Positions 5,390 through 14,779 of a DNA stretch of 28,010 nucleotides are shown here, in pieces. Both the position numbers and the translations under genes were made by a program. The DNA is from a virus (lineage: Duplodnaviria; Heunggongvirae; Uroviricota; Caudoviricetes). Below the pieces are notes generated by a model, which ran no database searches, was not told the origin of the DNA, and saw nothing but the letters and a program-made list of their open reading frames with translations. Position 1 is the stretch's first letter, and the number at the start of each line of letters is the position of its first letter. The stretch lies in IMG/VR virus record IMGVR_UViG_3300017650_000002, one strand, 5' to 3'.

Positions 5390-5466
5390 TCTCCTATAGC
5401 TCAGCGGTTAGTAGCAGCGGACTCATAATCCGTTGGTCCCTGGTTCAAATCCAGGTGGGAGAACCA
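5390..5466 (+). tRNA. tRNA with CAT anticodon (Ile2 or elongator Met), CCA encoded
   Basis: Acceptor TCTCCTA/TGGGAGA, anticodon arm GCGGA-CTCATAA-TCCGT, T-arm CCTGG-TTCAAAT-CCAGG, ACCA end. Confidence 0.92.
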
Positions 5467-5487: not shown

Positions 5488-5706
5488 ATGAAACCTGAAG
5501 TAAAGATTACAGATGTGGAGATTTGGCCTGCAAGTGGATATTTTGGACGAGCTTACGAGGGCCAGGAAGTGGCGACAGGTGTCTTGGCAGAGAAAGACCA
5601 CCGTGGGTGGCCTGAGGGCTATCCGATTCGTACAAGTATCATTGTAAACTACAATGAAGAAGATGGCATCATCGAAACACTAAACACTATCTACATTATT
5701 GTTTGA
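5488..5706 (+). CDS. Hypothetical protein (72 aa)
   Basis: GGAGG RBS and ATG 5488; the track start at 5455 lies inside the tRNA. Confidence 0.8.
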   Translation: MKPEVKITDVEIWPASGYFGRAYEGQEVATGVLAEKDHRGWPEGYPIRTSIIVNYNEEDGIIETLNTIYIIV

Positions 5707-5731
5707 CACGACGAAAATTTTGATGTAGAAT
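5703..5731 (+). promoter_or_regulatory. Sigma70 promoter of the tRNA/tRNA-like operon
   Basis: TTGACA-17 bp-TAGAAT; the -10 ends 10 bp before the first RNA. Confidence 0.85.
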
Positions 5732-5740
5732 ACGTTTTAT

Positions 5741-5863
5741 AGTTTGGTAGCTTAAAGATAGAGCAGTGGGCAAACATATAATGAATCCAGCGAAAGGCTT
5801 ACTGCCTTTATCGGGGAAGTCGTTAGACACCCATCAGTGCAGGTTCGACCCCTGCCCAAACTA
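5741..5863 (+). ncRNA. tRNA-like RNA with a 59-nt structured insert replacing the anticodon loop
   Basis: Acceptor AGTTTGG/CCAAACT, D-arm GCTT-AAAGATA-GAGC, anticodon stem GTGGG/CCCAT, T-arm GCAGG-TTCGACC-CCTGC; no encoded CCA. Confidence 0.8.
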
Positions 5864-5878
5864 TCTTATTAAGTTTCT

Positions 5879-5960
5879 CCGGGTGTATCTCAACGGTCTT
5901 CTAAACCGTCGTTAATCGAGTAATTGGAGTATGCAGGTTCGAGTCCTGCCATCCGGGCCA
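5879..5960 (+). ncRNA. D-armless tRNA-like RNA with TCT (Arg) anticodon and long variable region, CCA encoded
   Basis: Acceptor CCGGGTG/CATCCGG, only TATCTCA before the anticodon arm ACGGT-CTTCTAA-ACCGT, 23-nt variable region, T-arm GCAGG-TTCGAGT-CCTGC, GCCA end. Confidence 0.8.
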
Positions 5961-5966
5961 AAATAT

Positions 5967-6042
5967 ACGTCTGTAGCTCAGTGGATAGAGCGATCCCCTC
6001 CTAAGGGATAGGTCGTAGGTTCGATTCCTACCAGACGTGCCA
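5967..6042 (+). tRNA. tRNA-Arg(CCT), CCA encoded
   Basis: Canonical cloverleaf: ACGTCTG/CAGACGT, ATCCC-CTCCTAA-GGGAT, A20 and G73 Arg identity elements. Confidence 0.95.
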
Positions 6043-7553: not shown

Positions 7554-7564
7554 ATGGAGGTAAT

Positions 7565-8572
7565 ATGTTTGAGAGAGCAGTCTTTGATTATGACGCTTTC
7601 ATCTACAGTATTGGGCATGCAGTAGAGAAGAAAAGCATTATAGTAACAAACAAGCACAACGGTTGGACAAAAGAGTTCGACACAAGAACACAATTCTGGG
7701 GACACCATTTAAAGAAGAATGGTGGATACCTGGGAGAGGTTAACAAGAAGAAGGTGGAACTGGGGCAAGAGCCGGCCGTTCCAGAGGATTTCATTATAGA
7801 GCCTAGGCAAACCCCCAAGGGTAACTTGGCAGAGGCCCTGGGCACCGTTAAAGCCTGCCTAAACAAGATTATTTCTACCCTACAGGTGGATGAGTATATG
7901 GGGTTTATCGGCAAGGGTGCTTCATTTAGGGAAGATAGGTCAACAATCATCAAGTATAAGGGAAATAGAGATGATGCTGTGAAGCCCCTACTGAAGCAAG
8001 AGATTGAAGACTACATCGTCAAGAATCACAATGGTGAGATAGTAACCGGACTAGAAGCTGACGACTGGTGCATTATTGAAGGTGTCAAGGAAGGAAGAGT
8101 TGTTGTTGCAGTGGATAAAGATTCCCTAGGGTGCCCTGTGTACACTTATAATCCAGACAAGCCCCAACAGGGCATCGTGAATGGTAATTGCTACGGATCC
8201 CTAGAGGTTAATTCTAAGAATGAAGTAAGGGGATTCGGCAGGAAGTGGTTCTATTTCCAAGTGGGTTATGGGGATGATGTAGATAACTACAGGTCCAATA
8301 GTGCCACAAGTATGAAGATTGGTGAGAAGACAATCTTTGAAATGATGAACTATGCCACCAATGACAAGGAATCTCTGGAGGCTCTTGTCAAGGTTTATAA
8401 GCACATCTACCCTGAACCAGTTGAAATTACCGGTTGGCGTGGGGACAAAATTGTGGTAGACTGGCGTTATGCACTTCTTGAGAATTGGGATTTGGCTCGC
8501 ATGCTCAGGTCTGAAGACGACAAGGTTAGTGCGGAAGATGTTCTACGTAAGTATTCACTTTGGGAGGAATAA
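7565..8572 (+). CDS. 5'-3' exonuclease (T7 gp6/FEN-like)
   Basis: FDYDAFIY, YKGNR, GLEADD, VDKD, GDDVDN motifs. Confidence 0.88.
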   Translation: MFERAVFDYDAFIYSIGHAVEKKSIIVTNKHNGWTKEFDTRTQFWGHHLKKNGGYLGEVNKKKVELGQEPAVPEDFIIEPRQTPKGNLAEALGTVKACLNKIISTLQVDEYMGFIGKGASFREDRSTIIKYKGNRDDAVKPLLKQEIEDYIVKNHNGEIVTGLEADDWCIIEGVKEGRVVVAVDKDSLGCPVYTYNPDKPQQGIVNGNCYGSLEVNSKNEVRGFGRKWFYFQVGYGDDVDNYRSNSATSMKIGEKTIFEMMNYATNDKESLEALVKVYKHIYPEPVEITGWRGDKIVVDWRYALLENWDLARMLRSEDDKVSAEDVLRKYSLWEE

Positions 8573-14371: not shown

Positions 14372-14779
14372 ATGACACATCGAGCTATTAGTATGGAAGA
14401 CCTCAGGGCAGTGCCAGAGGCCTATAAGGTGTTTATGGAAGGAAGTCATCAAGACTTTATGGATCTGCTGTACAGTATTGGGTTCGATACTAAGAAGGAT
14501 ATCGAGGTGGAGACGGTTTTCCACCGCCCTATGGTACACTCCAGAGAGGTTGCATGCCCACGTTGGATTGGGGAGGAACGATCAGACCCTGAGTGGATGG
14601 CGTCCCCATACTGCACCTTAGAAAATAAATTGGTTCAAATTGGGAAGAAGGATGTAACTTTCCAAAAAGAGTTGGTAGAAATGGGGACATTTCCCAACTA
14701 TACAGCTATGTTTGTGGATCACATCAAGGACAATACTAAAACAAAGAGTCGAAAGACTAATAAAACCGGAGAGCAGTAG
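14372..14779 (+). CDS. Hypothetical protein (135 aa)
   Basis: GAGGAG RBS; located between thyX and nrdB. Confidence 0.85.
   Translation: MTHRAISMEDLRAVPEAYKVFMEGSHQDFMDLLYSIGFDTKKDIEVETVFHRPMVHSREVACPRWIGEERSDPEWMASPYCTLENKLVQIGKKDVTFQKELVEMGTFPNYTAMFVDHIKDNTKTKSRKTNKTGEQ

What the first reader, a model, noticed from the sequence alone, without database searches (positions are those of the whole stretch)
5741..5863. tRNA-like RNA whose anticodon arm is extended into a long rod carrying an anticodon-like loop at the tip
Seen: intact acceptor stem, D-arm, 5-bp anticodon stem and canonical T-arm, but a 59-nt insert (5771-5829) replaces the 7-nt loop. The insert folds back on itself: TAATGA(5779-84)/TCGTTA(5820-25), TCC/GGA, CG/CG, AAAGGC(5793-98)/GCCTTT(5804-09), loop TTACT. 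Opening the last pair gives a 5-bp stem with the 7-nt loop CTTACTG, which resembles an anticodon loop (C32, U33, UAC) but has a pyrimidine at position 37. There is no encoded CCA and the D-loop lacks G19. It is the first RNA after a dedicated promoter. Known: T4 has stable tRNA-cluster RNAs of unknown function (rnaC/rnaD), and anticodon nucleases (PrrC, colicins D/E5, VapC) are anti-phage or toxin effectors. Inferred: the ordered pairing argues for a selected structure rather than decay. It could be a nuclease or synthetase decoy, a ribosome or EF-Tu ligand, or a precursor with a removable intron.
Basis: partly seen in the sequence, partly recalled or inferred. Interest (0 to 1): 0.85.

Follow-up and report, generated by a model that had tools for sequence, protein, structure and literature searches.

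The report
Phage tRNA look-alike with rod arm
A soil phage carries a conserved tRNA-shaped RNA gene whose anticodon loop is replaced by a long paired rod, so it cannot read codons; it belongs to a small, undescribed family of phage tRNA look-alikes of unknown function.

Summary
Window 5741-5863 (+) matches the Rfam tRNA model over all 71 positions (46.2 bits; cut-off 29). A 58-59-nt insert sits where the anticodon loop should be. ARAGORN and Rfam's default filters both miss it. A near-consensus promoter lies just upstream. A second phage (L001; neighbouring protein 81% identical) keeps the whole RNA. There it is the best-conserved stretch of the locus (89% against 64-79% for the flanking genes). 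Two double compensatory changes occur, one in the rod and one in the T stem. L001 lacks the neighbouring tRNAs.

Six distinct uncultivated-phage contigs carry the same body (29-32 of 32 core positions identical). Their acceptor stems covary freely, and they have a 5-nt bulge plus a 4-bp hairpin at the same place. The rod is therefore an elongated native helix, not an insertion into a working loop. Stenotrophomonas, Pseudomonas and Alcaligenes phages have a similar body with other arm modules.

No excision restores a canonical anticodon loop. No ribozyme, bulge-helix-bulge motif or Ro60 gene was found, and five complete related genomes encode no RNA ligase or splicing endonuclease. Most likely it is an unspliced, non-decoding tRNA mimic; its role is inferred only. 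The scan has noted similar RNAs in other phages.

The parts
5703..5731 (+). sigma-70-type promoter (TTGACA, 17 nt, TAGAAT); leaves a leader of about 0-2 nt before the RNA
   Evidence: 11 of 12 matches; both hexamers identical in L001
5741..5863 (+). whole tRNA-shaped RNA, 123 nt, discriminator A5863, no encoded CCA
   Evidence: RF00005, 46.2 bits, full length; similarity to L001 ends exactly at 5863
5741..5747 (+). acceptor stem, 5' strand (pairs with 5856-5862)
   Evidence: across 15 family sequences positions 1-6 show 3-5 pair types and position 7 shows 2
5750..5764 (+). D arm: stem GCTT/GAGC, 7-nt loop without GG (11 nt in L001)
   Evidence: stem sequence invariant in the family apart from position 22, G or A; loop variable
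5766..5770 (+). anticodon stem 5' strand GTGGG (pairs with 5830-5834 CCCAT), ending in three G-C pairs
   Evidence: first four pairs invariant in 15 of 15 sequences; fifth pair G-C in 10
5771..5775 (+). 5-nt bulge CAAAC opposite A5829; in the 85-nt relatives CCAAC, CACAC, TCAAC or CCAAT at the same place
   Evidence: by inspection of the aligned inserts
5776..5828 (+). rod: helices 5776-5777/5827-5828 (only U5777-A5827 pairs in the window; A5776 faces C5828; both pair in L001), 5779-5784/5820-5825, 5786-5788/5815-5817, 5791-5793/5811-5813, 5794-5798/5804-5808; small internal loops; pentaloop 5799-5803
   Evidence: folds and z-scores; A5795G with T5807C compensatory; G5822A turns G-U into A-U
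5830..5834 (+). anticodon stem, 3' strand CCCAT
5839..5855 (+). T arm GCAGG / TTCGACC / CCTGC
   Evidence: C5840T with G5854A compensatory in L001; third pair is A-U, U-A or G-C in the family
5856..5862 (+). acceptor stem, 3' strand
5879..5960 (+). context: next RNA of the same transcription unit, a D-armless tRNA-like RNA (anticodon loop CTTCTAA, encoded GCCA)
   Evidence: 35.4 bits; 92-95% identical copies in many GenBank phages
5967..6042 (+). context: canonical tRNA-Arg(CCT) closing the RNA cluster, followed by an ORF from 6061

Best explanation
The locus encodes a stable, unspliced, non-decoding tRNA mimic. It is transcribed from its own early-type promoter with almost no leader. It folds into a normal tRNA body: a 7-bp acceptor stem, D stem, a 5-bp anticodon stem ending in three G-C pairs, and a T arm. 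Instead of an anticodon loop it carries a 5-nt bulge followed by an irregular rod of about 19 bp. Shown: the fold, its conservation, and its membership in a family with an almost invariant inner core, freely covarying acceptor stems, and arm modules of different length. Inferred: the tRNA body serves as the handle. It would give processing by the host tRNA end-maturation enzymes, metabolic stability, and/or binding to a factor that reads the tRNA core. The bulge and rod would be the lineage-specific working part. Because the arm is far too long and has no anticodon, the RNA cannot act in decoding. The most plausible role is as a competitive ligand or decoy for a tRNA-binding host or phage protein, for example a tRNA-targeting defence nuclease that would find no cleavable loop. 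Which partner it binds is unknown.
For: Full-length tRNA model match with the insert confined to the loop. Rod fold better than shuffles in both copies. L001 keeps the promoter and RNA, and the RNA is the best-conserved stretch of the aligned locus: 89.4% against 78.5% and 64.3% for the upstream genes, and unrelated sequence downstream. Changes in L001 are compensatory (rod tip stem, T stem), turn G-U into A-U, or fall in loops and bulges. L001 lacks the tRNA-Met and D-armless RNA (tRNA-Arg not assessable: the contig ends about 69 nt past the RNA) but keeps this RNA. Six distinct viral contigs carry an 83-85-nt version with 29-32 of 32 core positions identical to the window (for the five full-length ones), different acceptor stems, the same bulge and a 4-bp helix with a hexaloop at the same place. 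Over 15 family sequences 309 of 315 body pairs are standard, and acceptor positions 1-6 each show 3-5 pair types. Phages of Stenotrophomonas, Pseudomonas and Alcaligenes have a similar body with 13-, 36- or 68-nt arm modules. There acceptor type and module type are reshuffled; for example BUCT626 against Bhz55 and BUCT627. No canonical loop can be rebuilt by excision. No known RNA family other than tRNA matches.
Against: No expression data: no RNA run holds the locus. Only two sequences carry the long rod, so its covariation rests on one double change plus one single change, and shuffle controls on two sequences have no power. D and T loops are degenerate in several relatives, so recognition of a normal tRNA elbow is doubtful. 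No conserved neighbouring protein gene points to a partner. Homology with the Stenotrophomonas group is probable rather than proven: 25-29 of 32 core positions match, where by my hand count on two ordinary phage tRNAs about 19-22 match. The decoy role is pure inference.
Confidence: 0.5

Rival explanations
1. It is a precursor tRNA with a protein-spliced intron. Part of the insert is cut out and the halves are ligated, giving a working tRNA, as proposed for the 'enigmatic' introns of Lak megaphage tRNAs.
For: The insert lies in the anticodon loop, the usual place for tRNA introns. ARAGORN with its intron option calls a tRNA-Ser(aga) with a 52-nt intron in both the window and L001. In the Stenotrophomonas group the same body occurs with arm modules of 13, 36 or 68 nt, which looks like presence/absence variation. 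If the helix is removed at position 37/38, the remaining loops read CAAACAA, CCAACAA, CACACAA and so on, with A37 and A38.
Against: Those loops have C or A instead of U33 and mostly A34. The ARAGORN solution has a pyrimidine at position 37 that changes between the two copies, an intron at the non-canonical 31/32 position, and a 'Ser' body without the long variable arm. No bulge-helix-bulge motif flanks the junctions. 59 nt is far below any self-splicing intron, and no ribozyme family matches. The shortest relatives still have no 7-nt loop with U33; Siara has an 8-bp stem and the loop CGCCAAA. Five complete genomes carrying relatives encode no RtcB, no Rnl2-type ligase and no splicing endonuclease. 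The rod keeps its pairing under substitution, which a mere spacer need not do.
Confidence: 0.15
2. It is a cis-acting processing or stability element. The tRNA shape recruits RNase P and 3' trimming enzymes to cut the polycistronic early transcript, or protects the downstream mRNA; the RNA has no function of its own in trans.
For: It is the first element after a promoter and is followed by further RNAs and an ORF. In L001, L054 and L056 an ORF with a ribosome-binding site starts about 20-45 nt after the RNA. Acceptor stems need only pair, which is what RNase P requires.
Against: It does not explain the near-invariant sequence of the D stem, anticodon stem and variable region, the conserved bulge, or the maintained rod, none of which is needed for end processing. 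In L058 the RNA lies inside an array of 19 ordinary tRNAs that need no extra punctuation.
Confidence: 0.15
3. It is a Y-RNA-like tether: the rod binds a Ro60/Rsr ring protein and the tRNA-like body recruits another enzyme, as in YrlA.
For: YrlA also joins a tRNA-like module to a long helix at the anticodon-stem position (PMC4201824). The rod contains AGCGAAAG (AGCGAAGG in L001), close to the GNCGAAN0-1G motif given there. An earlier scan note (e1-4037503) proposed such a module in other phage tRNA-like genes.
Against: The motif's first G is not met. No Y RNA or YrlA family match appears at E up to 10. The topology is not permuted as in YrlA. No ORF of Ro60 size lies in the 28-kb window. No TROVE domain is found in five complete phage genomes carrying relatives, while the control genomes scored.
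Confidence: 0.05
4. It is a dead tRNA gene carrying a selfish or accidental insertion, kept only by chance or by recent common descent.
For: It has no anticodon loop, no GG in the D loop, no encoded CCA, and only two rod-bearing sequences are known.
Against: It is more conserved than the flanking protein genes and its changes preserve pairing. L001 retains it although neighbouring tRNAs are absent. The same body is kept in distinct phage lineages with fully covarying acceptor stems. The rod has no second copy in the window or in any fetched locus.
Confidence: 0.05

Closest known systems
'Enigmatic' introns in Lak megaphage tRNA genes (Devoto et al. 2019, PMC6784885)
   Same: Phage tRNA genes with short, ORF-less, highly conserved inserts in the anticodon region, missed by bacterial tRNA finders, with no known removal mechanism.
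   Different: There a tRNA type and anticodon could be assigned after removing the insert. Here no canonical loop can be restored, the shortest relatives also lack one, and the insert is a covarying helix continuous with the anticodon stem.
T4 stable RNAs species 1 and 2 (rnaC, rnaD) in the tRNA cluster
   Same: Small RNAs of unknown function encoded beside phage tRNA genes (next to tRNA-Arg in T4); rnaC has a tRNA-like T arm and terminal stem.
   Different: rnaC reaches only 17.5 bits against a tRNA-type model and rnaD nothing. The model of the present RNA finds nothing in the T4 region. The present RNA is a complete cloverleaf changed only in the anticodon loop.
YrlA-type bacterial and phage Y RNAs (Chen et al. 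2014, PMC4201824)
   Same: A tRNA-like core joined to a long helix at the anticodon-stem position; non-decoding; also found in phages.
   Different: YrlA is circularly permuted, with its ends in the long helix and the acceptor closed by a loop. It lies beside a Ro60 gene and has the GNCGAA motif. None of these was met here.
Engineered 'tRNA scaffold' RNAs, in which a foreign RNA replaces the anticodon arm (own knowledge, Ponchon and Dardel 2007; not checked here)
   Same: The same architecture. In E. coli such chimeras are processed like tRNAs and accumulate stably, which shows the design works as a carrier.
   Different: Those are artificial. This would be a natural counterpart with a conserved bulge and core sequence, which suggests more than a carrier role.
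Canonical tRNA (Rfam RF00005)
   Same: Acceptor, D, anticodon and T stems, U8, A26, G53-C61 and a TTCGA-type T loop; 46.2 bits.
   Different: No 7-nt anticodon loop, no U33, no G18-G19, and an arm about 19 bp too long for the ribosomal decoding site.

Membership tests
Canonical decoding tRNA | Cloverleaf with 7-bp acceptor, D, anticodon and T stems | tested here: met
   RF00005 46.2 bits over model positions 1-71
Canonical decoding tRNA | 7-nt anticodon loop with U33 and a purine at position 37, on a 5-bp stem | tested here: not met
   59 nt lie between the stem strands. The tip loop is a pentaloop that varies between the two copies.
Canonical decoding tRNA | G18-G19 in the D loop with T54-psi55-C56 forming the elbow | tested here: inconclusive
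   The T loop TTCGACC is canonical. The D loop AAAGATA has no GG. In relatives both loops vary.
Protein-spliced tRNA intron (archaeal/eukaryal type) | Bulge-helix-bulge at the splice sites or a position 37/38 intron, with exons that rebuild a canonical anticodon loop | tested here: not met
   No bulge-helix-bulge by inspection. Every 7-nt loop obtainable lacks U33 or has a pyrimidine at 37.
Protein-spliced tRNA intron (archaeal/eukaryal type) | Splicing endonuclease and RNA ligase available | tested here: inconclusive
   PF01974, PF01139 and PF09414 are absent from five complete phage genomes with relatives. The window's own full genome and host could not be searched.
Group I intron in a bacterial tRNA anticodon loop | Ribozyme core of about 200 nt or more with P1-P9 | tested here: not met
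   The insert is 59 nt. No intron or ribozyme family matches at E up to 10.
YrlA / Y RNA | Ro60-binding motif GNCGAAN0-1G in the long helix | tested here: not met
   The rod has AGCGAAAG; the first G is absent (motif from PMC4201824).
YrlA / Y RNA | Encoded beside a Ro60/TROVE gene | tested here: not met
   No Ro60-sized ORF in the window. PF05731 is absent from five relatives' genomes while controls were positive. The rest of the 92-kb genome was not searchable.
T4 rnaC/rnaD | Sequence or structure homology to the T4 stable RNAs | tested here: not met
   Model R1 finds no match in the T4 tRNA region L024. The T4 RNAs do not fit the tRNA model.
tmRNA | tRNA-Ala-like domain plus a tag reading frame | tested here: not met
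   ARAGORN and Rfam report no tmRNA. The acceptor stem has U3-A70, not G3-U70.
New family proposed here: phage tRNA mimic with invariant core | Core GCTT..GAGC-A-GTGGG ... CCCAT-CAGT-GCNGG..CCNGC, a covarying acceptor stem, and a 5-nt bulge plus helix in place of the loop | tested here: met
   Window, L001 and viral contigs L050, L051, L054, L056, L058 (L049 is cut and was not scored): 29-32 of 32 core positions identical

The most novel reading that the evidence does not exclude
Phages of several unrelated groups carry an undescribed class of tRNA mimics. A nearly invariant tRNA inner core acts as a docking platform and the anticodon loop is replaced by exchangeable structured modules. These RNAs work in trans as uncleavable decoys or inhibitors of tRNA-directed host factors such as anticodon nucleases. 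That would be an RNA-based counter-defence distinct from replacing or repairing cleaved tRNAs.
Probability: 0.3. Interest if true: 0.8.

Novelty: new variant of a known kind. Interest (0 to 1): 0.6.

Why it matters
Phage tRNA genes are usually read as codon-usage helpers or as replacements for tRNAs destroyed by host defences. This RNA keeps the tRNA body under clear selection but cannot decode. It is invisible to standard tRNA finders, and relatives in cultured Stenotrophomonas phages are unannotated, miscalled tRNA-Trp, or called pseudogenes. If such RNAs act as decoys or carriers, they add an RNA layer to phage-host conflict. They would also give a natural precedent for the engineered tRNA scaffold. 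Because some relatives sit in culturable phages, the question can be tested directly.

Tried and rejected
1. Exact and gapped DNA patterns from the rod gave nothing in viral contigs.
2. The looser rod pattern gave 15 metagenome and 4 genome-contig hits. These lie in coding regions or lack any tRNA body, so they are chance matches.
3. blastn of the RNA against GenBank phages found no relative of the rod.
4. Public runs: no RNA holder is listed for this locus. Laid contigs from four runs gave only the identical sequence and a roughly 95% relative whose contigs stop at 5707. They also gave a low-confidence joint 5857/5931 between the two similar T arms. No variation within the RNA was obtained.
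5. Protein-guided searches with the 72-aa upstream gene, the exonuclease and the T4_Y16D-like gene gave one rod-bearing relative (L001). Several more distant phages (L021-L023, L029-L032) lack the rod.
7. Antisense targets of the unpaired segments in the window: none for the tip or internal loops. The 8-mer complementary to 5771-5778 occurs at the exonuclease start codon (7564) and at 14707, but the segment differs in relatives.
8. An internal TATAAT at 5777-5782 as a promoter: not kept in L001.
9. No shared neighbouring protein family across independent loci.
10. Whole-genome searches of the window's own phage were not possible.
11. Patterns for inserts of 70-100 nt found no viral contig. The two hits for 40-70 nt have no T arm.

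Full report
**What is there**

Window 5741-5863 (+) reads as a complete cloverleaf.
- Acceptor stem AGTTTGG/CCAAACT.
- TA at positions 8-9.
- D stem GCTT/GAGC with the loop AAAGATA.
- A26.
- Anticodon stem GTGGG/CCCAT.
- Variable region CAGT.
- T arm GCAGG-TTCGACC-CCTGC.
- Discriminator A.
- No encoded CCA.

Between the two strands of the anticodon stem lie 59 nt (5771-5829) instead of 7. ARAGORN in its normal mode finds only tRNA-Met (5390-5466) and tRNA-Arg(CCT) (5967-6042). Rfam with default filters adds the D-armless RNA at 5879-5957 but misses the target. With permissive filters the Rfam tRNA model matches 5741-5863 over all 71 positions. The score is 46.2 bits against a cut-off of 29, with one 58-nt insertion in the loop, and no other family comes near. 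A promoter-like site TTGACA-17-TAGAAT ends 9 nt before the RNA.

Its energy is matched by only 1 of 200 shuffles.

**Where it comes from**

The window is part of a roughly 92-kb lytic-type phage contig from soil metagenomes. It encodes a DNA polymerase with an intein, exonucleases, thymidylate synthase and ribonucleotide reductase. The nearest cultured relative is distant: Pseudomonas phage phiPMW, with 41% identity in the exonuclease. No whole genome is held for it.

**Is the insert under selection?**

The 72-aa gene just upstream has one relative in the protein collection, at 81% identity. Its 1,084-nt contig, L001, carries the same promoter and the same RNA, including the whole insert.

Identity along the aligned locus is as follows:
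- 64% in the 42-aa gene.
- 78.5% in the 72-aa gene.
- 85% in the promoter.
- 89% in the RNA: the 5' body is identical apart from 4 extra D-loop bases, the insert is 86%, and the 3' body is 85%.
- Directly after the discriminator the sequences are unrelated.

The differences in the RNA fit the structure.
- A5795G with T5807C is compensatory in the rod.
- C5840T with G5854A is compensatory in the T stem.
- G5822A turns G-U into A-U.
- T5809C falls in a 2-nt bulge in the minimum-energy register.
- C5828T creates an extra A-U pair at the base of the rod.
- The rest lie in loops.

The tip loop changes from TTACT to TACCT, so the 'anticodon-like' reading of the tip is not conserved. L001 has no tRNA-Met and no D-armless RNA; an ORF follows the RNA directly, and the contig ends too soon after it to tell whether tRNA-Arg is also absent. 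With only two sequences the shuffle control has no power. Even so, this pattern is not that of a decaying pseudogene.

**A wider family**

I built a covariance model, R1, from the two sequences. It gave 47 bits on an unannotated stretch of Stenotrophomonas phage Bhz55, which had appeared as a weak blastn hit to the 3' body. Follow-up showed the same body in several forms:
- Bhz55, cm3, CM2, Yut1, Yut4 and BUCT626: 99 nt with a 36-nt module.
- Siara: 76 nt, annotated tRNA-Trp, but with an 8-bp anticodon stem and the loop CGCCAAA.
- Salva, BUCT627, BUCT548 and Pseudomonas phage 20Sep420: 131 nt with a branched 68-nt module. One of these is annotated as a tRNA pseudogene.
- Alcaligenes phage QDWS595: a weaker match.

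Acceptor type and module type are reshuffled among these phages. BUCT626 has the acceptor of BUCT627 and the module of Bhz55.

A gapped pattern from the body then found a closer set in viral contigs. Six distinct sequences of 83-85 nt have a D stem, A26, anticodon stem, variable region and T stem identical to the window at 29-32 of 32 positions (scored on the five full-length ones). Their acceptor stems are quite different, and some have degenerate T loops. One of them does not match the Rfam tRNA model at all.

In place of the anticodon loop these sequences have 20 nt. The 20 nt form a 5-nt bulge (CCAAC, CACAC, TCAAC or CCAAT; CAAAC in the window), then a 4-bp helix with a hexaloop, then a single A. 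The window's rod starts in the same way. The second pair is G-C in the short forms and U-A in the window and L001. The third position is often a purine-purine mismatch in both.

The rod is therefore an elongated version of a helix that is native to the family. It is not an insertion into a working anticodon loop.

Over all 15 sequences, 309 of 315 body pairs are standard. Acceptor positions 1-6 each show three to five pair types (position 7 shows two), while the inner core hardly varies. The closest phage relative with the region, L021, has at the same place a diverged tRNA-like RNA. By inspection it has GTGG, a CAAAAC bulge and an 8-bp hairpin.

**Intron or mimic?**

ARAGORN with its intron option calls a tRNA-Ser(aga) with a 52-nt intron at position 31/32 in both copies. 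That solution is weak for three reasons:
- It has a pyrimidine at position 37 that differs between the copies.
- It has A34.
- Its body lacks the long variable arm of bacterial tRNA-Ser.

Removing the helix at 37/38 leaves loops such as CAAACAA or CCAACAA, with C or A at position 33. There is no bulge-helix-bulge motif and no ribozyme match. The shortest family members also lack a canonical loop. Five complete phage genomes with relatives encode no RtcB, no Rnl2-type ligase and no splicing endonuclease, while the control genomes scored. I therefore rate splicing as unlikely (0.15).

**Other readings**

A Y-RNA-like tether was suggested by an earlier scan note. It finds no support, for four reasons:
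- The Ro60 motif is not met.
- There is no YrlA match.
- No TROVE gene is present in five genomes.
- No Ro60-sized ORF lies in the window.

A pure processing signal for the early transcript fits the position: it lies next to ORFs in L001, L054 and L056. It does not explain the invariant core or the maintained rod.

No conserved neighbouring protein was found. The rod has no second copy and no convincing antisense target.

**Best reading**

The RNA is an unspliced, non-decoding tRNA mimic. The fold, its selection and its family membership are shown. It is inferred that the tRNA body supplies processing, stability or docking. It is also inferred that the bulge and rod are the working module, perhaps as a decoy for a tRNA-binding factor.

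In the literature I searched, the nearest published cases are the Lak megaphage tRNA 'enigmatic introns' (PMC6784885), T4 rnaC/rnaD and YrlA (PMC4201824). None is the same thing. Earlier notes of this scan describe similar tRNA-shaped RNAs with hairpin or swappable arms in other phages. The theme has therefore been seen before in this scan, on other DNA.

Noticed in passing
window 5879-5960: This D-armless tRNA-like RNA (anticodon loop CTTCTAA, long variable region, encoded GCCA) is 92-95% identical over about 84 nt to unannotated or oddly annotated stretches in several hundred GenBank phages of unrelated groups. These include 121Q/PBECO4-type jumbo phages, rV5-like phages and T5-like Klebsiella phages ('tRNA-Leu', 'tRNA-OTHER'). 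Such identity across a soil phage and enterobacterial phages suggests strong constraint or horizontal spread.
   Followed up: partly
L035:301-376, L033:1436-1534, L036:302-432, L038:203-333: The Stenotrophomonas and Pseudomonas phage relatives all keep a hairpin with the loop CGCCAAA or CGCTAAA. By my recollection that is the tRNA-Trp loop CTCCAAA, or its amber-suppressor form, with G instead of U33. It sits on an over-long or branched anticodon arm. Acceptor stems and arm modules are reshuffled between phages.
   Followed up: partly
L021:4905-4988, L023:4493-4575, L030:2200-2284: Relatives of the window's phage carry another odd tRNA-like RNA upstream of tRNA-Arg(TCT). It has a good acceptor stem and T arm, ACCA at the end, an anticodon-like arm with the loop TTCAAAA, and an aberrant D region. 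ARAGORN does not call it.
   Followed up: partly
window 5771-5775 versus 5857-5861; L056, L054: In three of the six distinct short-arm/rod sequences (window, L056, L054) the 5-nt bulge repeats the last bases of the acceptor 3' strand. It could therefore pair with the acceptor 5' strand as an alternative fold (CAAAC against GTTTG in the window). It is not kept in L050, L051 or L058.
   Followed up: partly
window 7564-7571 and 14707-14714: The 8-mer complementary to the junction segment 5771-5778 (CAAACATA) occurs twice on the + strand, once across the start codon of the exonuclease gene. This is probably chance, since the segment differs in relatives.
   Followed up: partly
L001:1066-1084: The Logan contig that holds the only rod-bearing relative ends in an Illumina adapter sequence, so the DNA downstream of the RNA is cut short.
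   Followed up: no
window 5390-5466 versus L001: The tRNA-Met gene of the window is absent from L001, where the two flanking genes are only 46 nt apart. This is a clean presence/absence difference.
   Followed up: partly
L042:355-425 and four other viral contigs: These contigs carry a tRNA(CAT) with a mismatched 1:72 pair and three G-C pairs in the anticodon stem (initiator-like). Its 3' half is very close to that of the target family, which may hint at the ancestry of the body.
   Followed up: no
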